Notes: generated from the sequence alone by a model not told the origin. 64,000 nt of DNA from Escherichia coli (GCF_030013595.1 NZ_CP122768.1), one strand, 5' to 3'. Counted from the first letter of the stretch, positions 25,956 to 43,083 are shown. Translations and numbers: made by a program.

Positions 25956-25964
25956 ACCGTATAA

Positions 25965-25997
25965 GCCGCATGTCGAAGATGCATGCGGCTTAATATT
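25965..25997 (+). terminator. Rho-independent terminator after the autotransporter gene
   Basis: GCCGCATG-N9-CATGCGGC hairpin followed by TTAATATT, 10 nt after the stop. Confidence 0.65.
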
Positions 25998-26030
25998 GCC
26001 GACTTCAAACGACTTTTAAATCCTCCTTTT

Positions 26031-26144
26031 TATCCGCGATCGCGGATATCACAGTGTTTATCCCGTAGAGCGGATAAGATGTGTTTCCAGATTGACTTTA
26101 TCCTCACTAAAGGATAAAACTGATAATATCCCCTTGAGCGGATA
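26031..26144. promoter_or_regulatory. hipBA promoter/operator region with four HipB operator palindromes
   Basis: Four TATCC-N8-GGATA sites at 26031-26048, 26059-26076, 26099-26116 and 26127-26144, matching the known HipB operator consensus. Confidence 0.85.
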
Positions 26145-26165
26145 AATTTGCTGTGGACGTATGAC

Positions 26166-26432
26166 ATGATGAGCTTTCAGAAGATCTATAGCCCAACGCA
26201 ATTAGCGAATGCAATGAAACTGGTTCGTCAGCAAAATGGCTGGACGCAGAGCGAGCTGGCGAAAAAAATTGGTATTAAGCAGGCGACGATTTCCAATTTC
26301 GAAAACAACCCTGACAATACCACGCTGACGACCTTTTTTAAGATTTTACAGTCGCTTGAACTCTCAATGACGCTATGCGACGCGAAAAATGCCTCGCCAG
26401 AATCAACAGAACAGCAAGATCTGGAGTGGTAA
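26166..26432 (+). CDS. hipB: Antitoxin/repressor HipB (88 aa, XRE-type HTH)
   Basis: MMSFQKIYSPTQLANAMKLVRQQNGWTQSELAKKIGIKQATISNFENNPDN...; the ORF track starts at an upstream TTG, the true start is the ATG at 26166. Confidence 0.9.
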   Translation: MMSFQKIYSPTQLANAMKLVRQQNGWTQSELAKKIGIKQATISNFENNPDNTTLTTFFKILQSLELSMTLCDAKNASPESTEQQDLEW

Positions 26433-27242
26433 TGCCTAAACTTGTCACTTGGATGAACAACCAGCGGGTAGGCGAGTTAACGAAGTTAGCCAACGGCGCG
26501 CACACCTTTAAGTATGCACCGGAGTGGTTAGCCAGCCGTTATGCCAGACCGTTGTCACTTTCGCTGCCATTGCAGAGGGGGAATATCACCTCTGATGCCG
26601 TATTTAACTTCTTCGATAACCTGTTACCCGATAGCCCGATTGTACGTGACCGGATCGTTAAACGTTATCATGCCAAATCCAGACAACCGTTTGATTTATT
26701 GTCAGAAATAGGGCGAGACAGCGTTGGTGCCGTGACGTTAATACCCGAAGACGAAACCGTAACGCATCCGATAATGGCATGGGAAAAGCTTACTGAAGCC
26801 AGACTTGAAGAAGTATTAACGGCTTATAAAGCAGATATCCCTCTGGGCATGATTAGAGAAGAAAATGACTTTTATTCAGGCTGGCGGCAGTTATCGACTC
26901 ACGCCATTTTACGACATCATTTCAGCATTTCCGGTATTGGGTGGCGCAGGAATACACATCAGCGATCTCAAACTGGCAATGGGGCTTAACGCATCCAAAG
27001 GCAAAAAAACGGCAATCGATAAAATTTATCCGCGACATTTTCTGGCGACAGCAAAGTTGCTGAAATTTCCGGAAGTGCAGATGCATGAAATCCTGAGTGA
27101 CTTTGCCAGAATGATTCCGGCAGCACTGGATAACGTGAAGACTTCATTACCGACAGATTTTCCGGAGAACGTGGTGACGGCAGTTGAAACCAATGTGTTG
27201 AGGTTGCACCGTCGGTTAAGCCGAGAATACGGTATTAAGTAA
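26432..27242 (+). pseudogene. hipA: hipA toxin kinase gene with an internal out-of-frame deletion (about 0.5 kb missing)
   Basis: N-terminal 150 residues (MPKLVTWMNNQRVGELTK...GMIREENDF) then the frame breaks near 26870-26878; the C-terminal 125 residues (FIQAGGSYRLTPFYDIISAF...LSREYGIK) continue in a different frame. Locus is 811 bp versus about 1323 bp for intact hipA. Confidence 0.8.
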
Positions 27243-27461
27243 GATATGGGGTTTGGCCGTTGTTAATGAGCAGGACAATCATGACCGCCAACGACTGGAT
27301 TCTCCCTTGGTTTATGTTGGTGCGCATAATGTATATTATGTTAAATAGCCTACGATGGTAAACAACTTCATAAATCTCCATTGCCTTTCACGAAATCAAC
27401 AGGTTAACGATTTCTAACATCCCTCCCATTTCTTGCGTTAGGTGTAGAGTACATTTACTTC

Positions 27462-28280
27462 ATGTCCGCATCAACAATGAGGTTATCTATGTACTCGCTC
27501 AACCAACTAGTTGCCATCAACCACAAACGGCAATGGATTCTGATGGACACGGAAACCTGCTTACCGTTGTTGTACCCACTCAGATATCACATCGATCATT
27601 TGGCTTTTCGTTCATTGTCCACGCAGTCTGCTTCGCTGCAGGCCGTTAAGTTCTTTTACGAATTTTGGTTGCAGAAACACGGCGTCACGTTTTGCTATAG
27701 CTTCTATGCTTCTGGCCACAACCCGTGCATTGCTATTGAGGAAATGTCGGCATTTTCTCACTATCTGGAGAATGGTCGCGTAAGCCAATCAAATTTATTG
27801 GCATTCACTCCAGTCTCCACTTCCCATAGTTTTATCAACGCAGCGCGATTTCGTGCAGTAGCGCAGTTTATTGCTTTTTTGATTAACACGTATGTATCGC
27901 CGGTATATCGGGATGATTCTCCCAAAGCATTATCACTCCAGGCTTCCCGGTTACATACTCGCCTGCGCTTTTGTCGTGACAGTTATCGAGCGTTAACACC
28001 GGGAAAGCATTCTAACCATCGTCATATCCATCAGGGGTTTCAGAGTATGAACCGTGAAATGGTGATCAGTCTGTACACGATTATTGCTCCCTGCTCTAGC
28101 CAAAAATATAACCCATTAAATCCCTTCCCCACCAGAAACACCCAGTTTCGCAACTTTTTGATTATTCGCCTGTTACTGAATTATGGATTGCGAATAGGTG
28201 AATTATTGCTGTTGGAATGCAATTCTATAAAATCAAATATAAAAAAGGATAAGTTTAGTTTGATTGTAACTACAACTTGA
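27462..28280 (+). CDS. Tyrosine recombinase, N-terminal part (Tn554 TnpA-like / GInt integrase 1); probably disrupted
   Basis: 272-aa ORF ending shortly after a box-I-like segment (FLIIRLLLNYGLRIGELLLLECNSI); the catalytic C-terminal motifs are in the next ORF. Confidence 0.55.
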   Translation: MSASTMRLSMYSLNQLVAINHKRQWILMDTETCLPLLYPLRYHIDHLAFRSLSTQSASLQAVKFFYEFWLQKHGVTFCYSFYASGHNPCIAIEEMSAFSHYLENGRVSQSNLLAFTPVSTSHSFINAARFRAVAQFIAFLINTYVSPVYRDDSPKALSLQASRLHTRLRFCRDSYRALTPGKHSNHRHIHQGFQSMNREMVISLYTIIAPCSSQKYNPLNPFPTRNTQFRNFLIIRLLLNYGLRIGELLLLECNSIKSNIKKDKFSLIVTTT

Positions 28281-28305
28281 ATTTAGTCACTCTGCACCGT
28301 TTTAT

Positions 28306-28947
28306 GTGTCCAGGTCGATTAACCAGGTCATCCTTAGTTTCAGTCCGCCAGATTATCAGGCCGCCGTAGCGCGTGGCGAAGCGGCTCTACCAATTATTAC
28401 GCCGACCGACTTGCGCCACAACGTGGGGCACTCACTGGCTATGCAAGGGGTCAGCGCCGAGGAAATCGCGCATATTCTGGGACATACCTCCCTTACTGTT
28501 GCCAAGTATTACATTTTGGCGACACCTGCGCTGGCACTGATTCGAGCCAAAGCGTTGGGTACCAATCCGGTATGGCAAAATATGGTAGCTATGATGTTGA
28601 CTGGTGAACTGACCTCTTCAACGAAATGGCAAGGCCAGCGCGTGGTCGGCATAATCGGTGATCAGTTGCATGATGGGATTGGTGGTTGCTCCAGAGATAA
28701 TGGCGACTGCCCGTTCAGTGAAGTACGCTGCTGCTACGGCTGCCTGTATTATCGCCCCTTTACTGATGGTGACCATCAGGCTGTGCTGGAGAGTGTAGTT
28801 AAAGAAGTCGATGAATTGATCTCCATTTCAGACAGTGTTGGTAACGCCCGCAATCCACTTATTTCCATCCATGAAACCACACAATTTGAAATTCAATCCG
28901 TGATTGCCCGTTGCCGCTTTCGTCAGGAAAAAGGCGGTGTGCGATGA
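28306..28947 (+). CDS. Tyrosine recombinase, C-terminal part (catalytic box II); continuation of the previous ORF
   Basis: Contains DLRHNVGHSLAMQGVSAEEIAHILGHTSLTVAKYY (R-H...H...Y catalytic signature). Separated from the upstream ORF by about 25 nt with a stop; the R-to-HxxR spacing looks shorter than usual. Confidence 0.55.
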   Translation: MSRSINQVILSFSPPDYQAAVARGEAALPIITPTDLRHNVGHSLAMQGVSAEEIAHILGHTSLTVAKYYILATPALALIRAKALGTNPVWQNMVAMMLTGELTSSTKWQGQRVVGIIGDQLHDGIGGCSRDNGDCPFSEVRCCYGCLYYRPFTDGDHQAVLESVVKEVDELISISDSVGNARNPLISIHETTQFEIQSVIARCRFRQEKGGVR

Positions 28948-31310
28948 AAAAATATTTTGCGCAGTTTCACGCCTTTATCACCGAGCAGCAAAGCTGGTTT
29001 GAACAGCATCTGGCGACAGACTTCGAGCAGTCATGGGATGATCCTGTCTGGGTCTGCGGCAGCAATGGTAGTGGCTGGTTACGTGGTAATGGCAAAAATA
29101 AATTACGCTTTGATGAAATCAGCCGTACCAAAGGTATTGAGGGGCGCCATGCAGTGGCAGAAGACTATGCCCGGTTTATGAAAGCCCTGCTGGTACTAGT
29201 GTATCGGAGGCGAAATCGTAGCATATCCCCAGCGGTGGCTGTGGCAACGCTGATGATTTTGAAGCGCTGGTACCACTCGCTATTTGAGATGACCGGGCAA
29301 ACTCACCCAGTGTATCTAACCACCGGGGTAATTCAACGGTCAATGGATAGCCTCAGCGCAGCTTCGTCTCCAGGGGATCCCAATACCGCCAATTACAAAG
29401 GACGCTGTGTCAGTCTGCAAAAAATGGTTAATCACCAGTCATTCACGCTGGTGACACTGCAATATGTGTCTGATGCACAATATACCAATCAAACCAACCT
29501 GACCCGCAAAGCCCGGGAAACCATGGCTCTGAAACAGCAGGACAAGCTGACAGATACCACTACCGATGGTGAAGAGGCGTTGATTACCATTCGCGGTTTT
29601 CTGAACATCGTCGAATTAATCCAGCGGGTGGAAAGTGATGCTGAGAAAATTGCGTTAAATTGCCTGTTGTTATTGGTTATCACCGGCTTTCGCTCCATTG
29701 AAGCGTTTAATCTCAGACAGGATGCGCTGTTTAAACGCCAGATTGATGATCCGGCAATCCGCAAGCGGTTTCAGGACAAGGGATTACCCGATTATTTCCT
29801 TGGTATCCGTTATATTGGTGTCAAAGGTGCTGGGGAGCGAACGCATTGGGTAGAACCGCTGGCTGTACCGCTGGTCGAGAGTATATTCAGTTCCGTTAAA
29901 ATATTGACCGCACCAAAACGCAGTCATCTGACCTATCTACGGGAGAAATCTTTTACTGATTACCTGCCACAGGCCATCAGCGCCCTACCCGGTGAACAAG
30001 TTGAACTGGATGATGTGGTGACGTACATCACACAAACCGCCTCAAGTTTTCGTGGCCGGGCAGGACAACGAGACAAAACATCCAAAGCCCTCAACAAACG
30101 AGGTGTGCTGCCCGTTCTAGAAATGCCAGGGCCGAAAAACAGCAAATCTATCTATTATTCCAAGACTGACCTTAATCATTACATCAAGACCGAATTTGGC
30201 CTGACGGATGCCAACGAACCCTGTACGCACGCCTGGATGGAAAATGGCAAACGTTACGAAGTTAACTACGAAGACCTGTTATTTCTACATGAGAAGGGTT
30301 CGCTGGCATTAAAGCGCACACTGGCTTTGCTGGCTATACCGATACCATTCACTAACACACTTATGAATAAATTTTTAGGCAATGTTGAGCCTGATGGATC
30401 AGTATTCAGCAAATATCAATTACTGGAAGAGAATGGTACCCCCACCCGGATGCGTACCCACATTCCCCGGCACAACATCAATACCTTTCTTGCTATTGCG
30501 GATATCTCTGACCACTTACAGGCAATGTTGATGGGGCGAGTGGACATCACGCAGAATCAGCACTATCAACATCTGGCGCTTGCAGAACGGCGAAAAGCAG
30601 CCTCGTTGGTGCCCTTGCAGCCGATATCGACAGCACTAACTGCCGCGCCCTCTTCGTCCTCCATTGCTACGCCACTGGAAATCGTCAAACGGACCGGCCA
30701 ACTGGCGGTCACGAAACACATGACTTTGGACAATACCATCAAAGCCAACCTGCATACTTTTGACGATCGGGATGATGTAGCCAGGTTTGTCGAGGCGTCA
30801 TTTGCTGACGGCCTCTTTGAAGATGTTGCTGCCGCCTTTGAAGAAATCCGCGACGCAGAAGGACCAGAGCAAGCCTCTGCCATGGTGGCAAGACATGCCG
30901 TGATGTATCCGCTGAAATTTGGCTCCTGTATGCGGGAAGTTAACCTCTGGGGATGTCCTTATCGACTGAAATGCCAGAGTGCTGCCTTTTGTGAACATTT
31001 CACGCTGACAGGCCGGATAGATGAGCTACCCAATCTGATTGCCAAAAAACAGGCGTTACAGCAAGCACATTCGAAGTTGACCCAACTTACACAACATCAG
31101 CCTGACTACCAGACCAGACTGGCCGACATCGAACGACGGTTACAGCAACTCGAGGCAATACAAGCACAATGGCAGCGTCGTGCCAAGACTCAACAACTGG
31201 TTGCTGCGGAGAGTGTGTTGTCTGGTGGAGTAATCACCGAGGGCAAAGTCCGTACACTGGCCCAGCTTTTTGCACTTGAATACCAACAATTGATGCAGGA
31301 GAACGACTGA
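28944..31310 (+). CDS. Large tyrosine recombinase (Tn554 TnpB-like / GInt integrase 2), about 788 aa
   Basis: Box I-like LLLLVITGFRSIEAFNLRQD and box II-like THIPRHNINTFLAIADISDHLQAMLMGRVDITQNQHYQHL; ATG at 28944 overlaps the upstream stop (ATGA), suggesting translational coupling. Confidence 0.65.
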   Translation: MKKYFAQFHAFITEQQSWFEQHLATDFEQSWDDPVWVCGSNGSGWLRGNGKNKLRFDEISRTKGIEGRHAVAEDYARFMKALLVLVYRRRNRSISPAVAVATLMILKRWYHSLFEMTGQTHPVYLTTGVIQRSMDSLSAASSPGDPNTANYKGRCVSLQKMVNHQSFTLVTLQYVSDAQYTNQTNLTRKARETMALKQQDKLTDTTTDGEEALITIRGFLNIVELIQRVESDAEKIALNCLLLLVITGFRSIEAFNLRQDALFKRQIDDPAIRKRFQDKGLPDYFLGIRYIGVKGAGERTHWVEPLAVPLVESIFSSVKILTAPKRSHLTYLREKSFTDYLPQAISALPGEQVELDDVVTYITQTASSFRGRAGQRDKTSKALNKRGVLPVLEMPGPKNSKSIYYSKTDLNHYIKTEFGLTDANEPCTHAWMENGKRYEVNYEDLLFLHEKGSLALKRTLALLAIPIPFTNTLMNKFLGNVEPDGSVFSKYQLLEENGTPTRMRTHIPRHNINTFLAIADISDHLQAMLMGRVDITQNQHYQHLALAERRKAASLVPLQPISTALTAAPSSSSIATPLEIVKRTGQLAVTKHMTLDNTIKANLHTFDDRDDVARFVEASFADGLFEDVAAAFEEIRDAEGPEQASAMVARHAVMYPLKFGSCMREVNLWGCPYRLKCQSAAFCEHFTLTGRIDELPNLIAKKQALQQAHSKLTQLTQHQPDYQTRLADIERRLQQLEAIQAQWQRRAKTQQLVAAESVLSGGVITEGKVRTLAQLFALEYQQLMQEND

Positions 31311-31744
31311 TGCGCGGCAAGGAACTGGACACACTGATCGAGCACGAATTACAACTGATGCTGGTTGAAGGCTTTGACAAGTCCCCTATTTCCGCCAAGG
31401 CCCTGCATATTCGGCTCAAGGCAAAAGGTATCGTTAACGGTGGTTTAAGTACGCTGAGCAGCCTTGAGCGAAAACGCCTAATTGCTGCCTATGTTGATCA
31501 GCAACTTGGCCCATTGAATCTACGCCCAAAAGAAAAACAGCAATACGTCAACCGCAAAACCCGTCAGGCCTTGCTGGCCAGAAACCAGCAGTTGCAGGCG
31601 GAAGTCAGTGAGCTGCGAGACCAACTGGCGCAGAATACCCTGTCGTTGATAGAAATTGTCAAAGCGGTAAAAATCAATACAGTTATTCCGGTGGAAAGTC
31701 TGTTGGCTAAACATGTAATTCGGGAGTTACACAAGTCGTTATAA
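31310..31744 (+). CDS. Small coiled-coil protein (Tn554 TnpC-like / GInt accessory protein)
   Basis: 144-aa ORF whose ATG overlaps the upstream stop (TGATG); predicted coiled-coil (QQLQAEVSELRDQLAQNTLSL). Third gene of a recombinase-recombinase-small protein module. Confidence 0.5.
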   Translation: MRGKELDTLIEHELQLMLVEGFDKSPISAKALHIRLKAKGIVNGGLSTLSSLERKRLIAAYVDQQLGPLNLRPKEKQQYVNRKTRQALLARNQQLQAEVSELRDQLAQNTLSLIEIVKAVKINTVIPVESLLAKHVIRELHKSL

Positions 31745-31908
31745 TGCTGACATAGGAATATTTCGCCGACAGTTTCCCGGTTGTCGGCGAAATGCTGATT
31801 GTAATTTTTCGGCAAAGGGCATGGACGATTTCTTTTCGTTATTCTGCATATTGCTTACCTTCCCAAATTTCTCCAACCGTTAGTTGGAGAAATTAGATGG
31901 GTCGTAAA

Positions 31909-32103
31909 TCATGAATAAACGCCTTGATCTATTCGAAAAATGAGAATTGCAACTTTCAACGCCCCCTCTTCTGAGTCCATTATCTCAGAGGACGCTTTCC
32001 ACTGTAATGCTCTGTTTGGTTCATTGCACCAGTTTAATGCTGCACTTTCGTTACCTTCAAAAAGATCAATAGCCTTTTGTATAACATCATTTTTTGTCAG
32101 CAT
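31909..32103 (-). CDS. DUF2384-like (Xre/MbcA/ParS antitoxin toxin-binding domain) fragment, likely the frameshifted C-terminus of the upstream XRE protein
   Basis: ...AALNWCNEPNRALQWKASSEIMDSEEGALKVAILIFRIDQGVYS resembles the DUF2384 C-terminal signature; overlaps the XRE ORF by 17 nt across an A6 tract (T6 at 32090-32095 on the + strand). Confidence 0.45.
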   Translation of the reverse strand: MLTKNDVIQKAIDLFEGNESAALNWCNEPNRALQWKASSEIMDSEEGALKVAILIFRIDQGVYS

Positions 32104-32419
32104 GTTTTACACCTGAAGACGTTTTGAGTGCTTCGATAAGGCTACTTCGCTCTTCCTCTGTCATCCGAGATATGAGTAATGCAAGTTCTGCTGTTGTCTG
32201 ATCATCACAAAAAAGGTAGTTCAACGGCACGTTTAACTCTGCTGCCATCCGTCGAAGCGTATCAATATCGGGGACATGGCGTCCTTTCTCATAATGATTC
32301 ATACGACTGCTAGCCGATGCAGGATCAAAGCCAACAAGGAGACCCAGAGAGCGCTGTGATAAACCAGCCCTGCATCTCGCTTCCTTAAGTCGTTCTGGTA
32401 TCGGATTTTTTTCAGACAC
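32087..32419 (-). CDS. XRE-family HTH DNA-binding protein (110 aa)
   Basis: HTH signature LKEARCRAGLSQRSLGLLVGFDPASASSRMNHYEKGRHVPDIDTLRRMAAELNV. Confidence 0.7.
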   Translation of the reverse strand: MSEKNPIPERLKEARCRAGLSQRSLGLLVGFDPASASSRMNHYEKGRHVPDIDTLRRMAAELNVPLNYLFCDDQTTAELALLISRMTEEERSSLIEALKTSSGVKHADKK

Positions 32420-32503
32420 TGATTCATCTTCATTGGCCTCGAATGCTTAGATTGTCTAAGTATCTGCCATTGTTGTATACTTAGCAATCCTAAGTTAATA
32501 GCC

Positions 32504-33076
32504 TTGTTTTGTCATATGAATAGCCGAGTAACCAACCCTGAGTCGTACATATTTTCTGCAATCATCTTAATTGGCAAAGATAACTTCACCAGTAACGAAG
32601 TAGCAAAAATTCTTATCGAGCGATTTTCACTTCCGAAAAATTATTTAAAGGCAAAAGCTTTTGCTTATAACCAAATTCAATCCCTGGTTAGAAAAGGATT
32701 ATTAAACAAAGTAAGAAAAACAGGCGTGTATCAATATTTATACTCAGTCACAGCAGAATTCAATGTCGCAATAGAGTGCGTGAAATTAATTGAGGCAACC
32801 CCAAAGTCTTCCTGTCAACTTGTTTCAAGTGCTACCAACCATGAACACAGAAATGTAAATATCCAAATAAAGTCTCTTATTGAAAAATACAGCAGTGAAT
32901 TGGCGAAAGTATCAGGAGCAAAGGAGATTTATGAGGAATTGATAGTTGCTGTGCCGAGCAGGGAAAATGAATTCAGGAAGCTTTCTCTTGAACAAGAGAA
33001 AAAACACATCAAGATAAATGAAAAAATAAATACATTAATTGGAATTATTAATCAATCTCTTGCAGTAAGGCAATGA
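32504..33076 (+). CDS. Hypothetical protein (190 aa), AT-rich, divergent from the XRE gene
   Basis: Open frame only; lysine-rich with a possible N-terminal winged-helix-like segment and C-terminal coiled coil. No family recognised. Confidence 0.5.
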   Translation: MFCHMNSRVTNPESYIFSAIILIGKDNFTSNEVAKILIERFSLPKNYLKAKAFAYNQIQSLVRKGLLNKVRKTGVYQYLYSVTAEFNVAIECVKLIEATPKSSCQLVSSATNHEHRNVNIQIKSLIEKYSSELAKVSGAKEIYEELIVAVPSRENEFRKLSLEQEKKHIKINEKINTLIGIINQSLAVRQ

Positions 33077-33891
33077 ATTTTAGCAAGTATTTGAAGCTAA
33101 ATGGAGTCATGAAAAAGAGAGGGCAAAGCCGAACTCCGCCCTCTCCCGTCAAGCACTGATATATCTCATTAAAATGAGATTAACAGCGCGCACTCCTATA
33201 TGCTAGTCGTATATAAATATAATGTCAGCCAGTCCCGGATGCAACTCTTTAATGAAGTTCAGTACTCTCTTTTTTTAGTTATCGAAATGATAGTTGGTAC
33301 AAGGGAACACACGAAGAGGAAAATTGCGATGACTTTGACGCAGAGCATGTTGAGTCTATTATTGCGACCCTCGAAGCTCTGGATGCGTTAGATTTACGCC
33401 ACGGAAGATGGACTGTAAGTATCCCTCCAATAGTGCGACTCACTTACCCAGATTGTAAGTTCAAACGGTCGAAGGCACTAGATTCTGATAAGAATTTGAG
33501 GCGCATGAGTACAGGCATTCGATTGTCAGCTTCTGGGTAGTTGTGGGAATTCTGCTCAAAGTGCCGCTGGCCAAAACATATTGGGCGCTGGTCTGTGGCG
33601 GCAAAATGGTGTCACGTAAAAGATACAGATGTTCCAGTCTATTTTTGCCCAATAACGTGCCCCGGGTTCAGTTTTTTTGCTCGGGACTAAAACGCTTATC
33701 CAGATCAGCCGCCAGCTGTTCAATACTCTTCGTTGAGCCTTTATAAATATACCAATCAAACTGTTAAAAACTCGTTCAAATTCGACCAAATATTATTACT
33801 GGCTGATATTAGTTCGGTTAGGCAAAGCGCAACAAACAACTAAGAAGTGCGCCTCAAAAAATTAATTGTAAGGCGCCCCCCTAAAACACAT

Positions 33892-36219
33892 TTATTCTGT
33901 TATATTTCTTGGCAACATAGAAAAAGATGCTTGAGACAATCCTGCGCGCTTGAATTTATACCGTATATATGTTGACACTTCCATCTCATGGTTTGACAAC
34001 AAAATCTGACGATCTGAAAGCTCTACCCGTAACAAATCACTCAATGAAGCAATGTTAATCTCATCCATTGACTGTACTGGATCATCAATCAGTATAAATG
34101 GATTAAGCGCATATACCCTATTCAATGTTAGGAAAAATGCCAAACCTAATGATGCGATTTGCCCACTACTCATAGACAGGATTGCATCATGATCAGACTT
34201 CAGCGCAGTATTGAATTTGAGTATATCTCCTTTACCGCTCACTATAAACAAACCTAACCCACGCTGATAATTCTGTATGAGTCTTCCACTATATATATGG
34301 AATAACAGCTCTATATCACCAATAGTCTTTTTCGCATACTGTTTCGCAGTGTCGTCCAATTGCCGCCTAAGATTAACAATTTTTGCTTTTATTTTTTTGC
34401 CAGCTTCAATCCTAGAACTGAGCTTATCAAGCTCCGCTACTTTGGACTTGTACTCTTCGCTTTTGAATTTAGAATGAGCGGCTCTGAGATAGGATTCTTT
34501 ATTTTCAAAATCTGAAACACTAAGTGAGGTTATATCTGATGCGTTCAAGAAAGCCATCTCTAAGCTAGATGACCAGTCTAAAGGGAGCACATCCTTTTCT
34601 GGTTTTTTAGCTGTAGCAATAATCCCTTTTGCTTCATTAAACCGTAACAGCAGAGCTGCATCATCAGCCGTAAAACTAAGATCTTTTGATACGCCATAAT
34701 TTACCAACTGCAAAGCCACTTCACTTATGATTGAGAACTTAGATTCTGCTGCTGTGAGAGCCTTAAAAAGCACACTATCGAAATCTTTTGCAACTAGGTC
34801 ACGCTGCTGTGTGAATGCTGTTATCTGTAAATTTAGTAAGTCCTGTATTGACCTTACTGTCTCCTCCAACTTCTGGGCAGAAGCATCTATTTCAGATCGA
34901 ATTCTTTCCGCATTATTTACAGCGGCTTCCTCTAACGCAGCGTAAGTCGCCCATGATAACCCACAGAATGGACAACCGGAAATTTCCAAATCTTCACATT
35001 CTTGGTGTCGCCGCAGCAACTCTGCATGAGCATTTAGTAAATTTACAAGCTTTGCGTTCTTAGCTGCACTATCAGATTTAATTAGATCCCGTGCCTCAAT
35101 GAGACTATTTACACCAACCAAATCAGCAGCGTTCTTAAGACCGTTTAGGTCTACTTCATTTATCTCTGAAGCTGGCTTTCTGAATATCAAAAGATCATGA
35201 TCCAGCCCAACTAGCGTTGACTCCTTTACTTTCAGACCTTCATATCCAGCTACTTCAGAACCCAACTGAAGAGCCAACTTTATATCGACCTCTCTTTTTA
35301 AAAACGCATCAATATTACTATTAGCCTTTCTCGTCAGAACTTCATCAAAGTTCTGATATATTCTAAATATATTCCGTAATTCACGTATCAGAGTTTCAAT
35401 ATCTGTATCATTTACAGCCGATAGAGGCTGTTCAACATCCCAACCAGGTGACGGCGTCGCGGTACTTAACCGCTTGAAGTCAACGGAATTCTCGGCATCT
35501 TGAAACTGACCACTAAGCTGTTTAATTTTTTCATTCAACTCAGCCTGGAGGTCAGTATGCACTTTCCCCGTATAAGATTCCGTAATAATACTTTCTAACT
35601 CGGAGCAATATGATATCTGTCTCGTCAATTTATCGGTATTAATAAGATGCTCAATGCCTTTTTTTCTTTCAGTGGCATCCGTCGAGTACAGGTATCTATT
35701 CTGCCCTTGCTCAAGATAGTTCAATAAAGAGAAATTTTTTAAGAAGTTCTCTCCTAGAATACTCTCTAGTGCTTTAGAATCAAGACTCTCTCCAAACTTA
35801 TCGGAGTCTATACTGCTTATTTCGTAAAGCTTAAAAATAGAGAAGTTATCAGGTGCATTATTATCCGGGTTCGATAAATCCGCTATGGTAGCAACACGAG
35901 CTAGGAAAATTGACTCTCCTGAATCTTGATTTATGAGCTCAGCTCTAATAGCGATGTCGCCCTCTTTATTTCTATTCCAGTATATGTTTTCTTCAAATTG
36001 TTTTTTGCGCGAACGTTTTGCAACTGTTGCATCATTTGTATTGATAATTCTTTGTATAACGCCAGTAAACAAAAGCTCCAACGCATCAAATATGCTAGTT
36101 TTTCCAAAACCATTGGGGCCATCCAAGGTAATCATGGAGGCAGATCGAAAATCAATAGATGTATTTTCAAATGGCTTGAAATTTTCAATCTTGAGGCTGG
36201 ATATTTTCCATTTCTTCAT
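33892..36219 (-). CDS. Rad50/SbcC/SMC-like ABC ATPase with coiled-coil insert and CxxC zinc-hook-like motif (LmuB-like), 775 aa
   Basis: N-terminal Walker A (IENFKPFENTSIDF...LDGPNGFGKTSIFDALELLF), central CPFCG motif in a predicted coiled coil, C-terminal signature/Walker B/H-loop (SSGQIASLG...FILIDDPVQSMD...LLSNHE). Confidence 0.65.
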   Translation of the reverse strand: MKKWKISSLKIENFKPFENTSIDFRSASMITLDGPNGFGKTSIFDALELLFTGVIQRIINTNDATVAKRSRKKQFEENIYWNRNKEGDIAIRAELINQDSGESIFLARVATIADLSNPDNNAPDNFSIFKLYEISSIDSDKFGESLDSKALESILGENFLKNFSLLNYLEQGQNRYLYSTDATERKKGIEHLINTDKLTRQISYCSELESIITESYTGKVHTDLQAELNEKIKQLSGQFQDAENSVDFKRLSTATPSPGWDVEQPLSAVNDTDIETLIRELRNIFRIYQNFDEVLTRKANSNIDAFLKREVDIKLALQLGSEVAGYEGLKVKESTLVGLDHDLLIFRKPASEINEVDLNGLKNAADLVGVNSLIEARDLIKSDSAAKNAKLVNLLNAHAELLRRHQECEDLEISGCPFCGLSWATYAALEEAAVNNAERIRSEIDASAQKLEETVRSIQDLLNLQITAFTQQRDLVAKDFDSVLFKALTAAESKFSIISEVALQLVNYGVSKDLSFTADDAALLLRFNEAKGIIATAKKPEKDVLPLDWSSSLEMAFLNASDITSLSVSDFENKESYLRAAHSKFKSEEYKSKVAELDKLSSRIEAGKKIKAKIVNLRRQLDDTAKQYAKKTIGDIELLFHIYSGRLIQNYQRGLGLFIVSGKGDILKFNTALKSDHDAILSMSSGQIASLGLAFFLTLNRVYALNPFILIDDPVQSMDEINIASLSDLLRVELSDRQILLSNHEMEVSTYIRYKFKRAGLSQASFSMLPRNITE

Positions 36220-36940
36220 GAATCAGAGTCTCGATTAGTTTGTCTGCTTCAATCCCAGATGCAGAAGCATTAAAGATTTTGAGATGAAGACCGGTCAATT
36301 TTTTCTCGGCGAGTGCTTCCTTTACATAAATATCAAGCGGCTTTAGTGAGCTTTCCTTAACAGGAACCTTTACAAATGGAAGCTTTATAAAAATTCTCGC
36401 CGCGACGCTATATAATGTAGGCGATAGTGGTTGATCTCGATATTCTGCAAACATCCTATCATCGACAACAATCGCTGAAACGCTTTCGAAGTTGTGCCCT
36501 TCTAACAACCTAAGCTCTTCCTCGCTGTAATAAAGAAAATATTTTTTAAAATAATATGGATTCTCTTCAATTCCAAACACCTTACTCTCAATTCCATTAA
36601 AATCAACTCGGTGCCTTAATTTATGCAAAATAATCAGATCGGTATTTTTATCGAAAGCAGGATCAGATTTGAATGTTTCAGGAGCATACAGTAACACTAA
36701 TTTATTCAGCACCTGCGGTGATGGTATATTTTCACACTCAACCACAGCGAGGAATCGCTTCCTATCTCCACTATCCTGACTAAAATAAGTCAAAGACTTA
36801 TAATCAACACCTTCAAGACCAGCTAAAGTTTCTCCTGCCGAATACTCTATGGTGACGTCATCTGCTTTAGAATAGTCGCCTGTATTAAACAAAGTAAACT
36901 CATGTTTCAAGGCAGCCTGTAGAACAATATCTTTAATCAT
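36185..36940 (-). CDS. Middle gene of the three-gene operon (251 aa), unknown function, possibly LmuC-like
   Basis: Start overlaps the upstream stop by 8 nt and its 3' end overlaps the downstream ATPase start, indicating translational coupling. No recognisable motif. Confidence 0.5.
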   Translation of the reverse strand: MIKDIVLQAALKHEFTLFNTGDYSKADDVTIEYSAGETLAGLEGVDYKSLTYFSQDSGDRKRFLAVVECENIPSPQVLNKLVLLYAPETFKSDPAFDKNTDLIILHKLRHRVDFNGIESKVFGIEENPYYFKKYFLYYSEEELRLLEGHNFESVSAIVVDDRMFAEYRDQPLSPTLYSVAARIFIKLPFVKVPVKESSLKPLDIYVKEALAEKKLTGLHLKIFNASASGIEADKLIETLIHEEMENIQPQD

Positions 36941-38195
36941 TCAACTTCACCCTCGCCTCTTCCTTTGAAATTATTTTTGCATCAAAGGCTTTAGTTATTT
37001 TGTTACGATCCTTACCCATCAATGAAAACTCATCTTCTACAGCATCCCGCGAAGCTCCGGTAGCTGCACAAAATCGCTCAGCGGGTGAAAAAATATTTGC
37101 TCTAGCTGCGATTAGCCATTGATATTCAACTAAGATATCTATCAGCTCTGGATCGCTTTTCAGCTGCTCTATTAGATCTTCAGCAAACCTATGCTCCCGT
37201 CGAGCATTGTCTGCCGAAATTGCTGTTGGCAAATAAAAATCTCCGGCAGAGCACCTATAGTAAGGAGGCTTTTGCTCACTCAGTGGCGCTTTATCTATAT
37301 CGTAGATCACATCCACATAATCATAAACACTGTTCTCACTCACGACCATTGTGGAAGATCCAAAACATAACGACTTCCACAACCATATAAATGGAGTATC
37401 ACCCAACTCTTTAATCTGATCGTAAACATTTGCAACTTTTTGAATAACAGTTCTATCTGCTGTTTTTTCCATTGTATTGGTATACCCATACAATGATTTA
37501 CAAACGGCCATCCTGGCTTGGAACATTTTGTATACAATGTCGTCTTCATGGGTAGCGGTGAGGCTTAATAACTCTACAATCTTCTCACTTTTTAAAGTTT
37601 GAGTAAACGCGGCTTGTGCGGCGCTCATTAACCCATCCTGATTGCACGCGTGTATATATATTACTTGAGCGGCAATATGACTCTGCAAAGCCTCGAACTT
37701 CAAATTCACTAAAAAATCACTGCAAGGTAACTCTTCGGAAACCAGGTACTTCTCAATTTTTGATTTCGTTTTTTCTTCAACATCTTGGAGATAGCAGTAA
37801 GGCAGTCCATCGTAAGTATAAAATTTAACGACATTCCCATTGCTGCCAACAAAATCAGAAGCATCATCAAGGCGCGCAGATGTATGAAAATATCTTTTGG
37901 TAGTCTTATCACACAACATATATGTAGATGCAGCTTTTTCGAGAGCCTCCCTATAGGCAGCTCTTTTATCATCTGCTAGCGCTTTTACCTGATGCGTAGA
38001 AACTGCAACTCCATTTTCAATTATCGAAAAATCATCAATGCTGTCGATTTGCAACTCAAACGACATTTTATTGAGCACACATTCTATGGAATGATAAAGC
38101 GCTAAATGCCCTTGATAAATAAACCCACTCCATGTAGGTGCAGCTGTATGAGGATGGGAGGAAGCCGATTTCGACATGCAATATGTCCTAGGCAA
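36933..38195 (-). CDS. Candidate effector of a three-gene defense operon: PD-(D/E)xK nuclease-like protein (possibly Cap4/DUF4297-like, LmuA-like), 420 aa
   Basis: N-terminal region WSGFIYQGHLALYHSIECV...QIDSIDDFSIIENGVAVSTHQVK has the E..D..E/QxK spacing of restriction-endonuclease-fold proteins; first gene of an overlapping operon; AT-rich. Confidence 0.5.
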   Translation of the reverse strand: MPRTYCMSKSASSHPHTAAPTWSGFIYQGHLALYHSIECVLNKMSFELQIDSIDDFSIIENGVAVSTHQVKALADDKRAAYREALEKAASTYMLCDKTTKRYFHTSARLDDASDFVGSNGNVVKFYTYDGLPYCYLQDVEEKTKSKIEKYLVSEELPCSDFLVNLKFEALQSHIAAQVIYIHACNQDGLMSAAQAAFTQTLKSEKIVELLSLTATHEDDIVYKMFQARMAVCKSLYGYTNTMEKTADRTVIQKVANVYDQIKELGDTPFIWLWKSLCFGSSTMVVSENSVYDYVDVIYDIDKAPLSEQKPPYYRCSAGDFYLPTAISADNARREHRFAEDLIEQLKSDPELIDILVEYQWLIAARANIFSPAERFCAATGASRDAVEDEFSLMGKDRNKITKAFDAKIISKEEARVKLND

Positions 38196-38524
38196 ATTTA
38201 GAGACAGAGTCAGAAGTAACCTTCTAACTCAGTAGAATATGATCTTAATTTCTGTATCCGATGTTTATATTTTTTGTTGAACGCGCCCAGCGGCGTTATG
38301 AAAACTTCCTTGATTGTCATTTTTATGCATTCTCTTGATCGATAGGAATTTAAATCCCAAAAAGATTAAAAAAACACCCAAAAACGGATGTTTATTCGAC
38401 ACTGCCTGCGTGCCATGAGTGCACCGCCATCAATTAAATGGATCTTATCGAGTGATACTGTATATCACTGATGGTTTTTTACTCCATTCCCCTGAAAATG
38501 GACGCAACTTCCCCGATGCGGCTC

Positions 38525-39757
38525 TCAGCCGCACACCCGCTGTTGCGCCAGTGGCTCATGCATCAGGACCAGCTCTGTCAGACGGTAGCCCCGCTTCAGC
38601 CCCGTAAAACGCATCTGACATCCGCACAGGATGCACTTTAGCGGGTCAACCTTCAGTAACCGCTGATACATCCCTCTCCACCTGATTTGCATCGCCGTCT
38701 TTCTCACCGTCTCCGTTATGACGTACACAACATCTTCCAGTAACCGGCGCTTTACCGGACTCAGGAAACCGTAGTACCTCACCATACGGAACCCCTTATC
38801 CGCCACATGCCAGGAGAACCTTTCCATAAACTCATCACCACTCATCACCAGGTATTCTTCCCGTTTTGTCCGGTGACTGTTGTAACGCAGACCAATTTCA
38901 TCCTGACCAGCATAGTGCTCCAGACGGCTCATCGGCACCGGCGGTTTTTTCAGGTAAGAGCCGAAGTACACCGCCACATGTGTGGCGTTATCCATCACCC
39001 GGGATACGTTGACATTCCAGCCCCGCCGGTAATGACTGTCCAGGAAGCGATTCCAGTCCCGTCTGCTGCTTCCTTCAACTGCCAGCGCATCCGGTATCAC
39101 CAGCTCCGGGTATTTTCGTGACAGTAACCACGTTATCCTGTAACGCCACATGCTCATCACCTTACGGGCGTAAAAATGAAGGTTTTTCCAGGTGTGGTCT
39201 GGTGTCACGCCGCCGGCCGTTGTCGACAGGTGAATGTGCGGATGCCACTGCTGGTCACGTCCCCATGTGTGGATGACCGTGAATATCCCCGGCACCACAT
39301 CTGCCTGGCGGCAGATTTCCTGTATCACATCCGCAGCAATGCGGCTCATCTCTGCCAGTAACCACCGGTTGTGGAACACCAGGGACCAGTACTGGCAGGG
39401 AAGTGTGAACACAATATGCTGCCACGGACAGTCGGGAACCAGACTCAGCAGATACTGTATCCACTGTGCGCCAGCCTTCACTCCGCAGTGCGGGCAGGAG
39501 CGACTTTTACACCGGAAGCAGACCTTTTTTGTGTGGCAACAGTCCGGAGATGAACAGCACCACTGTGTGTACCCCATCAGCGTGGTTCCGCACGCCATGA
39601 TTTTTGTCACCGACTCAATGACTACCGGACGCACTGAACCTTCCGGTTGTTTCTCCAGCCAGTTAAGCCAGCGGTTTCCCTGCTGAAAAATGTCGGCAAA
39701 ACGGGGAAGCATCAGAAGGGCGGGGGGACTCCGTCCGGCCAGTGAACCGTGCCACAC
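38525..39757 (-). CDS. tnpA: IS91-family transposase (HUH rolling-circle type)
   Basis: 410-aa ORF with N-terminal Cys-rich zinc-binding region (CHTKKVCFRCKSRSCPHCG) and HUH-like motif HTWGRDQQWHPHIH. Confidence 0.7.
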   Translation of the reverse strand: MWHGSLAGRSPPALLMLPRFADIFQQGNRWLNWLEKQPEGSVRPVVIESVTKIMACGTTLMGYTQWCCSSPDCCHTKKVCFRCKSRSCPHCGVKAGAQWIQYLLSLVPDCPWQHIVFTLPCQYWSLVFHNRWLLAEMSRIAADVIQEICRQADVVPGIFTVIHTWGRDQQWHPHIHLSTTAGGVTPDHTWKNLHFYARKVMSMWRYRITWLLSRKYPELVIPDALAVEGSSRRDWNRFLDSHYRRGWNVNVSRVMDNATHVAVYFGSYLKKPPVPMSRLEHYAGQDEIGLRYNSHRTKREEYLVMSGDEFMERFSWHVADKGFRMVRYYGFLSPVKRRLLEDVVYVITETVRKTAMQIRWRGMYQRLLKVDPLKCILCGCQMRFTGLKRGYRLTELVLMHEPLAQQRVCG

Positions 39758-40077
39758 TCCGGGCAGTACATGCCGCCGGCGCTGATACCGGCAAGAATGG
39801 TCGCAAACTCCCGCTCCGTGCAGCGGGCTATTTCAGGATACCCTTCGTCATCGACACGAACAAACCAGAAGACCAGCTTTTTGTTTCCGGCATCCACAAA
39901 GAAGGGAATATTCAGGTCTGCGCAGCACTCAACGGCATCGTCAAAATTATCAAAGCGCAGAGCTTCTGCGTCTTCTTCGTCAAAGAAGTCATCGTCGTGA
40001 AGCTTCACGACATAGCGGGGAAGTTTGCTTCTTTGAGGGGCAGGTTTTCGTTTACGGGGTTTAGCTGAACGGGACAT
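39712..40077 (-). CDS. IS91 ORF121-like accessory protein
   Basis: 121-aa ORF immediately upstream of and overlapping the transposase gene, the size and position of IS91 orf121. Confidence 0.5.
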   Translation of the reverse strand: MSRSAKPRKRKPAPQRSKLPRYVVKLHDDDFFDEEDAEALRFDNFDDAVECCADLNIPFFVDAGNKKLVFWFVRVDDEGYPEIARCTEREFATILAGISAGGMYCPECGTVHWPDGVPPPF

Positions 40078-40964
40078 ATAACTACCTGAAAGACAATGAT
40101 ATTGTCTGTTTTTATAACGGTAATTTCAGGCCATGACAAGCCGCAGCCGCCAAGCTGCCTACTCGAGCGATATCGCTATGATATCACCGAATGTAACATA
40201 CCTGTAGGGTCAAAAAAAGGGTCAGCCAAACATTCTGGAGTGTTCGGTATCGTTGGTACCATTCATGCAAAATGGACTTAAATCTTAAGAAAGACACTCC
40301 ATTAGCTTAAGCTTCCCTACCTTACCCTACCAATACACCTAGCCAGCCGTGAGAACGCTACCGCCATCAGAGGCATTAGTCCCGATTAAGTATCGATGCA
40401 ACCAAATGTTACCAAAATTCATGAATTGTTCAAGAAGGCAATCAGATAATCCCTAAAGCTTTATGGGCCTGGTTATGCGATTACATTGGGAAATGGTTCA
40501 TGAACAGAAGTAGAGCAAGCTGCCAAGAAATGCTCATAAGAGGCGAATTTCCTGTTAGTTCATGAAGCCACCTGGAAGTGAATTCATCTTTCTATTAAAA
40601 ATATTCATTTAAAGCAAAGAGATATGTCATCTGTGGTTTATGAACTGGATTCTCGCTCAACATAAGTTAAATGTGGTGGGTTTGTTCTTAAGTTCATGTG
40701 TTCCGCTCTTTCAGTAGCTTAACTGATGAATCAGTCAGCAGCTCTTGCCGTGCAAGCTACGCGGCGGTTCGTACCAGATTGGCCACCTCCATCTCCTGGT
40801 TCGCTTTCCCCTCCCCCCGGTAAACCTCACCCAACGTTAATTAATGATGTCAGTATGTGGGCGCTATCCTTGTATGTAAAATCCACTGACGATTATGCCC
40901 ATCTGTGAAAAAAACTCACAATGCCATTCGATGCATCTCCATACTGAACGAGGCGTTATCGTCT

Positions 40965-41864: not shown

Positions 41865-42000
41865 AATGTTTTCCTAAAGCAATTCTCGCCTGATTATTAA
41901 GTACAGTCTAAAAATGCTTAAGTCAATGACCCTCTAATCTTCCTGAAATACGCCTCTTATACTTTAGTCTCTTTCTACTACGACCTGAGTTCAGGAGACT

Positions 42001-42312: not shown

Positions 42313-42320
42313 GGACCGAT

Positions 42321-43010: not shown

Positions 43011-43083
43011 TTAATTCATCGTTACTCACCTTACTTGGCCGGTTTAAGTCAGCCACGATCCGGCCTTTTTTCAGGAGCTGAAT

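What the first reader, a model, noticed from the sequence alone, without database searches (positions are those of the whole stretch)
33077..33891. AT-rich spacer with fragmented short ORFs between the 190-aa gene and the ATPase gene
About 800 bp with only short overlapping ORFs in several frames (for example a minus-strand frame reading ...YKGSTKSIEQLAADLDKRFSPEQKN) and a GC-rich hairpin at 33115-33148 (AGAGGGC...GCCCTCT). It may be the remnant of a decayed gene or an exchange hotspot at the 3' side of the defense-like operon.
Basis: seen in the sequence. Interest (0 to 1): 0.25.

Follow-up and report, generated by a model that had tools for sequence, protein, structure and literature searches.

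The report
Gene-fragment junkyard at island cargo junction
The 815-bp gap is the seam between the conserved backbone of a known mobile island (a GInt) and its anti-phage cargo; it holds a conserved terminator and regulatory block plus leftover fragments of at least three, probably four, unrelated genes, so it is ordinary but records how such islands swap cargo.

Summary
The window is E. coli chromosome. A 13.3-kb GInt (Tn6571-family island) sits at the hipA/ydeT hotspot at 27348-40662, flanked by 11-nt imperfect repeats. The spacer (33077-33891) lies between the GInt backbone and its ABC-3C/Lamassu-type defence cargo.

In detail: there are no ORFs above 77 aa, the hairpin is real, and the quoted peptide is real. 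The region is not AT-rich relative to its neighbours (GC 42.7% against 34-39%).

- **33077-33298** is backbone non-coding DNA shared by GInts with at least 10 different cargos. It holds a covarying double hairpin whose U-tract is on the minus strand, so it most likely terminates leftward cargo transcription. It also holds invariant promoter/operator-like boxes.
- **33299-33748** is a stack of relics:
  - the last 37 codons of an ~888-aa SMC/ABC ATPase;
  - codons 2-18 of a ginA integrase from another GInt;
  - residues ~30-76 of a ~355-aa zinc-ribbon protein;
- **33749-33891** carries the likely ABC-3C operon terminator.

Interest is low. The ginA scar hints at cargo turnover through tandem GInts followed by deletion.

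The parts
27337..40673 (+). Context: GInt (Tn6571-family) island at the hipA/ydeT hotspot. It is flanked by imperfect 11-nt direct repeats, TATGTTAAATA (27337-27347) and TAAGTTAAATG (40663-40673).
   Evidence: The empty site in strain CFSAN061770 (L010) aligns to window 24500-27347 and 40663-47500 with an 11-nt overlap. Gene order is integrase, integrase, ~790-aa protein, 144-aa protein. The hotspot is listed as #20 in PMC10121019.
33077..33298 (.). Conserved GInt backbone intergenic block, shared by islands with different cargo.
   Evidence: 92-100% identical in E. coli GInts with type I RM, Avs4/helicase or IS66/ATPase cargo. 78-82% identical as far as about 33252 in plasmid GInts with retron, CBASS-like, metal-resistance, helicase and other cargos.
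33112..33147 (-). Hairpin T1: a 15-bp stem (5 G.U pairs) with a 3-nt loop, running into UUUUU on the minus strand. Likely an intrinsic terminator for leftward (cargo-side) transcription.
   Evidence: dG -24.6 kcal/mol (minus) against -16.8 (plus). The stem is kept in all 12 homologues. The G.U pairs would be A.C mismatches on the plus strand. The CUCUUUUUCAUG tail is nearly invariant.
33153..33189 (-). Hairpin H2 (core TCTCAT/ATGAGA at 33164-33179) with an outer helix; it covaries among GInts.
   Evidence: UA to CG changes, GC to AU changes and a paired A/T insertion keep the helices. 97% of cells are paired, and 3 pairs (7 cells) change on both sides; 1 of 500 shuffles reaches the observed count of cells changed on both sides and 0 of 500 the covariation score. 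The 101-nt minus-strand fold has dG -46.5 and z -7.0.
33196..33245 (+). Invariant boxes CTATATGCTAG (33196-33206), TATAAT (33218-33223) and ATGCAAC (33239-33245). Presumed promoter/operator. In plasmid GInts it precedes a 98-aa HipB-like HTH gene that this lineage lacks.
   Evidence: The CTATATGCTAG and ATGCAAC columns are invariant and TATAAT is kept in 11 of 12 homologues (TATAAG in L019), at 76% mean column identity. The HTH gene lies ~125 bp downstream in L011-L014 and L018-L022. No trace of it is found in the spacer.
33299..33411 (+). Relic R1: the last ~37 codons of an ~888-aa SMC/ABC-type (LmuB/MADS3-like) ATPase. The stop codon is TAG in relatives and TGG here, because junction J2 falls at 33409|33410.
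   Evidence: KGTHEEENCDDFDAEHVESIIATLEALDALDLRHGR matches the extreme C-terminus of P0005 and of P0007 (residues 812-888 of 888). 95 family members have E<=1e-3, many of them ~870-910 aa long.
33438..33489 (+). Relic R2: codons 2-18 of the ginA integrase of a different GInt subfamily. The start codon is lost and Trp has become a stop.
   Evidence: 86.5-88.5% DNA identity to 18 E. coli records, always at the 5' edge of the first GInt integrase. DSLTQIVSSNGRRH*ILI aligns with MYSLSQIVSSKGRRRWILMD.
33492..33632 (+). Relic R3: residues ~30-76 of a ~355-aa plasmid-borne protein (weak HEPN-like N-terminus plus zinc ribbons; variously annotated hypothetical, 'HsdR' or 'TFIIB-type zinc ribbon').
   Evidence: tblastn against plasmids gives E 5e-15 at 69% identity over 45 aa, with hits in 138 other plasmids. 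Pairwise identity is 55% over 47 aa to the L015 and L016 proteins. DNA identity is 74%.
33668..33748 (-). Relic R4 (probable): the C-terminal ~26 codons plus stop of a DUF4145-type protein.
   Evidence: 50% identity over 26 aa to the C-terminal tail (residues 219-244 of 251) of the L017 DUF4145 protein, pairwise E 3e-5. At database level E is only ~1, with 9 of 10 weak hits to the same family and position. There is no Pfam hit and no word-index hit.
33830..33884 (-). Hairpin T2 plus a U-rich tail, 8 nt after the ATPase stop. Candidate terminator of the ABC-3C operon.
   Evidence: GGCGCCUUA...UGAGGCGC stem followed by UUGUUUGUUG; the 86-nt fold has dG -24.1 and z -2.2. This stretch is found only together with this cargo.
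33892..38195 (-). Context: the cargo, a three-gene ABC-3C (Lamassu-family) defence operon of ATPase, middle component 1 and a Cap4-nuclease/CTD1 effector.
   Evidence: Pfam MComp1, CTD1 and Cap4_nuclease. PADLOC LmuB (231.6 bits) and LmuA.

Best explanation
The spacer is the seam between the conserved backbone of a GInt mobile island and its replaceable cargo. It is non-coding.

The first 222 bp belong to the backbone:
- A structured double hairpin has its U-tract on the minus strand. It most likely stops transcripts coming leftward out of the cargo genes, which usually lie on the minus strand, before they run antisense into the backbone regulators and the gin recombinase operon (inferred).
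- It is followed by a promoter/operator-like block. In sister GInts this block precedes a small HipB-like regulator gene that this lineage has lost (shown by comparison).

The next ~450 bp are inert scars of earlier cargo turnover:
- the truncated 3' end of a large defence-type ATPase gene;
- the first 17 codons of a ginA gene from another GInt;
- an internal N-terminal piece of a zinc-ribbon protein gene;
- probably the 3' end of a DUF4145 gene.

These pieces are butted together at sharp junctions without shared sequence (shown). The ginA scar, together with the existence of tandem GInts at this same site, suggests how cargo is exchanged. A second GInt integrates next to the first, and deletions then remove the inner ends and one gin operon (inferred).

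The last ~140 bp belong to the present cargo and carry its probable terminator. The whole mosaic now travels as a fixed unit (99.6-100% identical) on conjugative plasmids and in chromosomes.
For: - Island limits and empty site.
- Backbone block conserved next to at least 10 different cargos, with breakpoints at 33298|33299 and 33409|33410.
- Hairpins.
- Invariant boxes and the downstream HTH gene in sister GInts.
- R1.
- R2.
- R3.
- R4.
- No intact coding: and no annotation.
- Tandem GInts joined exactly at attR in strain H7.
- Other lineages carry other relics at the same seam: a SEC-C tail in P0004 and permuted ATPase fragments in L009.
- The identical spacer sits inside an intact GInt on a Raoultella plasmid.
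Against: - No expression data exist, so terminator and promoter roles are inferred from sequence only.
- The simple terminator scan missed T1, because its loop and G.U rules exclude it.
- Covariation rests on 11 distinct, related sequences and only 3 pairs with double changes.
- R4 is not significant at database level (E about 1).
- Only 26 bp separate R1 from R2, although a simple tandem junction would include ~150-250 bp of GInt end sequence. At least two deletions, or another route, are therefore needed.
- All 31 full-length copies are near-identical, so constraint on the relic part cannot be assessed.
Confidence: 0.75

Rival explanations
1. The conserved backbone block encodes a small RNA of ~85 nt on the minus strand. 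It would start near 33193 from a CTGACA-17-TAGCAT promoter, include H2 and end at T1, and act as a regulator of the GInt. On this view the block is more than a passive terminator.
For: - A promoter-like site on the minus strand at 33228-33200.
- TAGCAT lies in the invariant CTAGCATATAG box.
- The two-hairpin fold has z -7.0, with a U-tail.
- G.U pairs favour the minus strand, and covariation is present.
- In plasmid GInts the adjacent gene is on the plus strand, so no nearby minus-strand gene needs this terminator.
Against: - The -35 element is poorly conserved (CTGGGA or CTGAGA in most homologues).
- The same invariant bases also fit a plus-strand TATAAT promoter/operator.
- There is no Rfam match.
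- There are no expression data and no target was identified.
Confidence: 0.15
2. The spacer is one decayed gene (a single pseudogene) that once sat between the 190-aa gene and the ATPase gene.
For: There are many short ORFs. A 94-codon stop-free frame spans 33259-33540. Gene callers have predicted 70-, 113- and 67-aa ORFs here.
Against: - The homologous pieces belong to unrelated families, lie in different frames and on both strands, and each covers only a small terminal or internal part of its parent.
- The 94-codon frame is chimeric (backbone + R1 + out-of-frame R2) and is not longer than chance allows.
- The 70-aa ORF is frameshifted in the window, and its few substitutions are all non-synonymous.
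Confidence: 0.03
3. The seam is a dedicated site-specific recombination site at which the Gin recombinases insert or swap cargo cassettes, in the manner of an integron attI site.
For: Sharp, recurrent breakpoints occur next to an invariant sequence block. A ginA 5' fragment lies at the seam. How GInts capture cargo is an open question (PMC5385486).
Against: - No copy of the att core within 2 mismatches occurs anywhere in 33001-33950.
- Breakpoints differ between lineages: 33298, 33409, and just after the HTH stop codon in plasmid GInts.
- No shared motif is found at the junctions.
- The relics are truncated at arbitrary points within genes, as illegitimate deletion would produce.
Confidence: 0.07

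Closest known systems
[quoted passage not shown] 2017, PMC5385486; defence-carrying GInts in E. coli, Hochhauser et al. 2023, PMC10121019)
   Same: - A ginABCD-type operon at the 5' end, then variable cargo, then a short conserved 3' end.
- Site-specific insertion flanked by 10-17-nt imperfect repeats.
- Cargo is often defence or addiction systems.
- The hipA/ydeT site is listed as a defence hotspot.
   Different: - The published description places cargo directly after ginD.
- Here, and in ~100 enterobacterial relatives, the conserved part extends ~1.5 kb further. It includes an Xre/MbcA-like gene or gene pair, a 190-aa wHTH-like gene, the structured intergenic block and, in most plasmid forms, a HipB-like gene.
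- The relic-filled seam is not described in the GInt papers examined here (PMC5385486, PMC10121019, PMC10214605, bioRxiv 2024.06.12.598671).
Accretion of integrative elements in tandem at a shared att site, followed by internal deletion (described for ICE/IME/CIME elements of streptococci; from my own knowledge, not checked here)
   Same: Two related elements sit head-to-tail at one att site (strain H7). An internal integrase-gene scar is consistent with later deletion fusing the modules.
   Different: Not demonstrated for GInts. The R1-R2 distance (26 bp) does not fit a single simple deletion. No intermediate was found.
Rho-independent terminators used as insulators at module boundaries of mobile elements
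   Same: A GC-rich stem, a short loop and a U-tract. It is placed between convergent modules and is conserved with the backbone.
   Different: Activity is untested. The terminator is accompanied by a second covarying hairpin and could instead be the 3' end of a small RNA.
Defence hotspots with conserved flanks and swappable cargo in P2/P4-like elements (from my own knowledge)
   Same: Conserved flanking sequence brackets highly variable anti-phage systems, and the same flanks occur with many cargos.
   Different: The carrier is a different kind of element (a tyrosine-recombinase transposon-like island, not a phage or satellite). Here the seam retains visible gene scars.

Membership tests
GInt (Tn6571-family island) | Four-gene operon at the 5' end: two tyrosine integrases, a large recombinase-fold protein without catalytic residues, and a small protein. 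| tested here: met
   Gene order is integrase, integrase, ~790-aa protein and 144-aa protein in H7, in the Raoultella plasmid and in others. In the window itself ginA and ginB are fused by a deletion. ginC has no Pfam hit.
GInt (Tn6571-family island) | Site-specific insertion flanked by 10-17-nt imperfect direct repeats, with an empty site in related strains. | tested here: met
   TATGTTAAATA / TAAGTTAAATG (9 of 11 identical). The empty site is in CFSAN061770.
GInt (Tn6571-family island) | Sequence homology of the proteins to the reference GinA-D (Pseudomonas). | not tested
   The reference sequences are not held here. E. coli multi-integrase elements of this layout were classed as GInts by BLAST in PMC10121019.
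GInt (Tn6571-family island) | Excision/circularisation and integration dependent on ginABCD. | not testable with these tools
   This needs an experiment. The window copy has a truncated ginA/ginB and is probably immobile.
Intrinsic (Rho-independent) terminator | A GC-rich stem-loop immediately followed by a U-tract on the transcribed strand. | tested here: met
   Met on the minus strand only: a 15-bp stem, dG -24.6, then UUUUU. There is no U-tract on the plus strand.
Intrinsic (Rho-independent) terminator | Transcripts actually end there. | not testable with these tools
   No RNA 3'-end data are available.
Gene relic / pseudogene fragment | Statistically significant similarity to part of an intact gene family, with truncation or disabling changes. 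| tested here: met
   - R1: E 1.8e-12 for the spacer ORF against P0005; P0005's own family search then gives up to E 2.8e-28.
- R2: 88% DNA identity, E 4e-8.
- R3: E 5e-15.
- All three are truncated. R2 has lost its start codon and gained a stop.
   Database-level E is about 1. Pairwise E is 3e-5 with a collinear C-terminal position. There is no Pfam or word-index hit.
ABC-3C / Lamassu-family defence system (the neighbouring cargo) | An ABC/SMC-type ATPase, a middle component, and an effector with the ABC-3C CTD. | tested here: met
   Pfam SMC_N/AAA_23, MComp1, and CTD1 + Cap4_nuclease. PADLOC LmuB and LmuA.
Known RNA families (Rfam 15) | A match at the gathering threshold. | tested here: not met
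   No match in the whole window. Only chance-level miRNA hits at E > 2 in 32900-34000.

The most novel reading that the evidence does not exclude
The relic stack is a readable record of how GInts change cargo, a step their describers left unexplained. A second GInt integrates at the att site of a resident one, as seen in strain H7. Deletions then remove the inner ends and one gin operon. This leaves the 52-bp ginA scar and fuses the surviving backbone to the incoming defence cargo. In the same reading, the conserved double hairpin next to the seam is a backbone-encoded insulator or small RNA that makes any incoming minus-strand cargo transcriptionally safe.
Probability: 0.35. Interest if true: 0.35.

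Novelty: new member of a known kind. Interest (0 to 1): 0.2.

Why it matters
In itself it matters little, because the stretch is non-coding scar tissue in a known type of mobile island. It has three modest uses.

1. It shows that this enterobacterial GInt lineage has a longer conserved backbone than the published ginABCD definition. The backbone ends in a structured terminator/regulatory block, which gives a precise left landmark for delimiting defence cargo.
2. The ginA scar and the tandem arrays give a concrete, testable route for cargo turnover in GInts, which the original description left open.
3. It warns annotators that the 67-, 70- and 113-aa 'hypothetical proteins' called here in some databases are chimeric artefacts.

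Tried and rejected
- **Rfam:** gathering threshold on the whole window and E<=10 on 32900-34000 gave nothing beyond chance miRNA hits.
- **tRNA/tmRNA scan:** none.
- **Simple terminator scan:** it missed T1 because of its loop and G.U rules.
- **Pfam and NCBIfam on the translated fragments:** no hits, because the fragments are too short.
- **Relic of the HipB-like HTH gene:** tblastn with four homologues found nothing in the spacer.
- **Second att site:** no copy of the att core within 2 mismatches in 33001-33950.
- **R4 against the DUF4145 gene of a GInt cargo (L019):** no similarity.
- **Word-index search with a frame-repaired 41-aa R4 peptide:** nothing.
- **DUF4145 motif-like match at 33468-33512 (minus):** rejected as chance. 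It is not collinear with R4 and it overlaps R2/R3.
- **14-nt inverted repeat 33220-33233 / 33798-33811 bracketing the relics:** my estimate is about 0.1 such pairs expected by chance in this region, and there is no supporting feature. Not pursued.
- **The 49-aa CxxC-containing ORF at 33541-33690:** it is an alternative frame of R3 and is not supported.
- **Plus-strand promoter-like site at 33335-33362:** it lies inside relic R1, and the number of such sites is at the shuffle expectation.
- **PDB sequence search for the 190-aa protein:** nothing.

Full report
**Setting**

The window is Escherichia coli chromosome around hipBA. The spacer is 99.6-99.9% identical in 14 of 5,426 complete E. coli genomes, and nothing is annotated under it. 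It is also 99.8-100% identical on 17 plasmids of Klebsiella, Raoultella, Citrobacter and E. coli, most of them typed conjugative.

Comparison with a strain lacking the insert (CFSAN061770, L010) delimits a 13.3-kb island at 27348-40662. It is flanked by imperfect 11-nt direct repeats, TATGTTAAATA and TAAGTTAAATG.

The gene order in intact relatives is:
- two site-specific integrases;
- a ~790-aa protein without Pfam hits;
- a 144-aa protein;
- an Xre/MbcA-like gene or gene pair on the opposite strand;
- a 190-aa gene;
- the spacer;
- cargo.

This is the architecture of GInts (Bardaji et al. 2017, PMC5385486). GInts were already reported as defence-carrying elements in E. coli, and hipA/ydeT is listed there as hotspot #20 (Hochhauser et al. 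2023, PMC10121019).

In the window copy, ginA and ginB are fused by a deletion. An IS91-family element sits in the right-end region.

The cargo to the right of the spacer is a three-gene ABC-3C (Lamassu-family) system:
- an ATPase;
- middle component 1;
- a Cap4-nuclease/CTD1 effector.

**Checking the observation**

- The 815 bp between the convergent stop codons (33076 and 33892) hold only ORFs of 77 aa or less.
- The longest stop-free run (94 codons) is within the shuffle expectation of 81 +/- 19; 22% of shuffles reach it.
- The hairpin exists and is far more stable than shuffles (z about -4).
- The quoted minus-frame peptide exists.
- 'AT-rich' does not hold. The spacer is 42.7% GC against 34.2% and 38.6% for the flanking genes.

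**Left part: conserved backbone (33077-33298)**

The first 222 bp recur at 92% identity or more downstream of the 190-aa gene in E. coli GInts that carry other cargo:
- type I RM with an M48 peptidase (L003);
- IS3-interrupted helicase/Avs4 (L002, L007, L008);
- IS66 with an ATPase and AlbA (L009).

At 78-82% identity, the stretch up to about 33252 recurs in plasmid GInts with still other cargos:
- retron Ec78;
- a CBASS-like set;
- chromate/nickel resistance;
- a ~2000-aa ATPase;
- UvrD plus an ATPase;
- DUF4145 plus AAA;
- DEAD/DEAH helicases.

Within this block, two hairpins are kept in all 12 homologues aligned.
- **T1 (33112-33147).** On the minus strand it is a 15-bp stem with five G.U pairs, running into UUUUU (dG -24.6). 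On the plus strand only 8 bp form and no U-tract follows.
- **H2 (33153-33189).** It shows UA to CG and GC to AU double changes and a paired insertion.
- **Overall.** 97% of cells pair, and 3 pairs (7 cells) change on both sides. One of 500 shuffles reaches the observed count of double-changed cells, and none reaches the covariation score. The 101-nt minus-strand fold has z -7.0.

The G.U pairs and the U-tract argue that the minus-strand RNA is the relevant one. Most cargos begin with minus-strand genes. I therefore read T1 as a backbone-encoded terminator that stops cargo transcripts from running antisense into the backbone. This is an inference; no RNA data exist.

Downstream of the hairpins lie three conserved boxes: CTATATGCTAG, TATAAT (kept in 11 of 12 homologues; TATAAG in L019) and ATGCAAC. 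In the plasmid GInts they are followed ~125 bp later by a 98-aa HipB-like HTH gene, and conservation stops right at its stop codon. The window's lineage lacks that gene, and no relic of it is detectable.

**Middle part: a stack of relics (33299-33748)**

*R1 (33299-33411, plus strand).*
- It encodes KGTHEEENCDDFDAEHVESIIATLEALDALDLRHGR, the extreme C-terminus of an ~888-aa SMC/ABC-type ATPase family.
- The matches are P0005 and P0007 (residues 812-888 of 888). Ninety-five relatives have E<=1e-3, many of them 870-910 aa long.
- The family scores as SMC_N/AAA and as LmuB/MADS3-like.
- L003 diverges from the window exactly at 33298|33299.
- L002, L007, L008 and L009 share R1 and keep its TAG stop. 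The window diverges after the T of that codon (33409|33410), giving TGG.

*R2 (33438-33489, plus strand).*
- It is 86.5-88.5% identical to 18 E. coli records, always at the 5' edge of the first integrase of another GInt subfamily.
- In frame it reads DSLTQIVSSNGRRH*ILI, against MYSLSQIVSSKGRRRWILMD.

*R3 (33492-33632, plus strand).*
- It starts 2 bp after R2.
- It matches residues ~30-76 of a ~355-aa plasmid protein family with a weak HEPN-like N-terminus and zinc ribbons.
- Support is tblastn E 5e-15 at 69% identity, with hits in 138 other plasmids.

*R4 (33748-33668, minus strand).*
- It aligns at 50% identity with the C-terminal tail of DUF4145 proteins (pairwise E 3e-5, collinear with the C-terminus).
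- At database level E is only about 1, and other searches found nothing. I call it probable, not shown.

*Spurious ORFs.* ORFs that gene callers have placed here (P0001 of 113 aa, P0002 of 70 aa, P0006 of 67 aa) are chimeras of backbone plus relics.
- The 70-aa one is frameshifted in the window by a 1-nt change in a T-run.
- Its few substitutions are all non-synonymous.

*Other lineages.* They carry other debris at the same seam:
- a SEC-C (YecA-like) tail fused after R1 in Klebsiella variicola (P0004);
- further permuted fragments of the same ATPase family in L009.

**Right part (33749-33891)**

This stretch is found only together with this ABC-3C cargo. It contains a stem-loop at 33840-33884, eight nucleotides after the ATPase stop, followed by a U-rich tail. 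The stem-loop is the likely operon terminator (z -2.2, modest).

**How it arose**

The junctions show no shared motif, and no att-like core is present. Each relic is cut at an arbitrary point in its gene. This fits deletion or illegitimate joining better than a dedicated cassette site.

Three observations support a tandem-accretion route:
- R2 shows that the left end of another GInt once lay inside this cargo region.
- In strain H7 a second GInt is integrated exactly at the attR of this one.
- The ~190-bp right ends of the two elements are 86% identical.

Together these suggest tandem accretion followed by deletions that remove inner ends and one gin operon. Homologous exchange between the conserved flanks is a second possible route. 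Against a single simple deletion, only 26 bp separate R1 from R2.

The GInt literature I could read gives no mechanism for cargo capture.

**Comparison and verdict**

The element meets the structural definition of a GInt (operon layout, imperfect repeats, empty site). Homology to the reference Gin proteins was not tested. The spacer itself is an ordinary, non-coding seam containing:
- backbone regulatory and terminator sequence;
- three well-supported gene relics and one probable relic;
- the cargo's terminator.

I rate interest at 0.2. The most novel reading left open has two parts. The first is that the relics document cargo turnover by tandem GInts plus deletion. The second is that the conserved double hairpin is an insulator or a small RNA of the GInt backbone.

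Noticed in passing
window 26871-26872: hipA carries an internal deletion of ~510 bp relative to the intact gene in L010 (L010 2374-2883 is missing). The toxin gene next to the island is therefore truncated in this strain, while hipB looks intact.
   Followed up: partly
window 27543-28947: The island's first two integrase genes (ginA, ginB) are fused or truncated by a deletion (245-aa product plus a partial CDS in the near-identical strain HCP5S3_I2). This copy is probably immobile. An intact version with the identical spacer is on Raoultella plasmid p3045-1 (L024).
   Followed up: partly
window 38345-40161: A ~1.8-kb insertion carries an IS91-family transposase (ORF 38525-39757, minus strand). 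It lies in the GInt right-end region and is absent from strains H7 and HCP5S3_I2.
   Followed up: partly
window 31909-32419 (minus strand): The Xre-type HTH (110 aa) and the MbcA/ParS C-terminal toxin-binding domain (64 aa) are two ORFs overlapping by 17 nt. No RES or ParT-type toxin gene lies next to them. This is either a split antitoxin-like regulator or a frameshifted gene, and it is conserved as such in several GInts.
   Followed up: no
L001 25259-25980 (E. coli H7): A second GInt is integrated exactly at the attR (TAAGTTAAAT) of the first, giving a tandem array. Its right end (~190 bp) is 86% identical to that of the first.
   Followed up: partly
window 33220-33233 and 33798-33811: A 14-nt inverted repeat (13 of 14 complementary; TAATGTCAGCCAGT / ACTGGCTGATATTA) brackets the whole relic stack. 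The left arm overlaps the conserved TATAAT box. My estimate is about 0.1 such pairs by chance in this region, so it may be coincidence.
   Followed up: no
L009 11340-11914; L018 3731-3882; L019 3732-3862: In strain 214-4 the seam holds additional, permuted fragments of the same ~888-aa ATPase family. It also holds a ~150-bp block that is 94% identical to sequence just after the HTH gene in two plasmid GInts. This is a shared piece of unknown nature near the seam.
   Followed up: no
window 32504-33076 (190-aa gene): This conserved backbone protein has only weak hits (PADLOC AbiEi, E 0.004, residues 33-114; Pfam EarA-like, E 0.08) and no PDB relative. It is probably a winged-helix regulator with a coiled-coil tail. 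Its function in GInts is unknown.
   Followed up: partly
window 33271-33277: The window and three plasmid copies (Raoultella p3045-1 and two Klebsiella plasmids) have a T-run one base shorter than the other copies (815 bp against 816 bp). This is what breaks the 113-aa chimeric ORF called in other records.
   Followed up: yes
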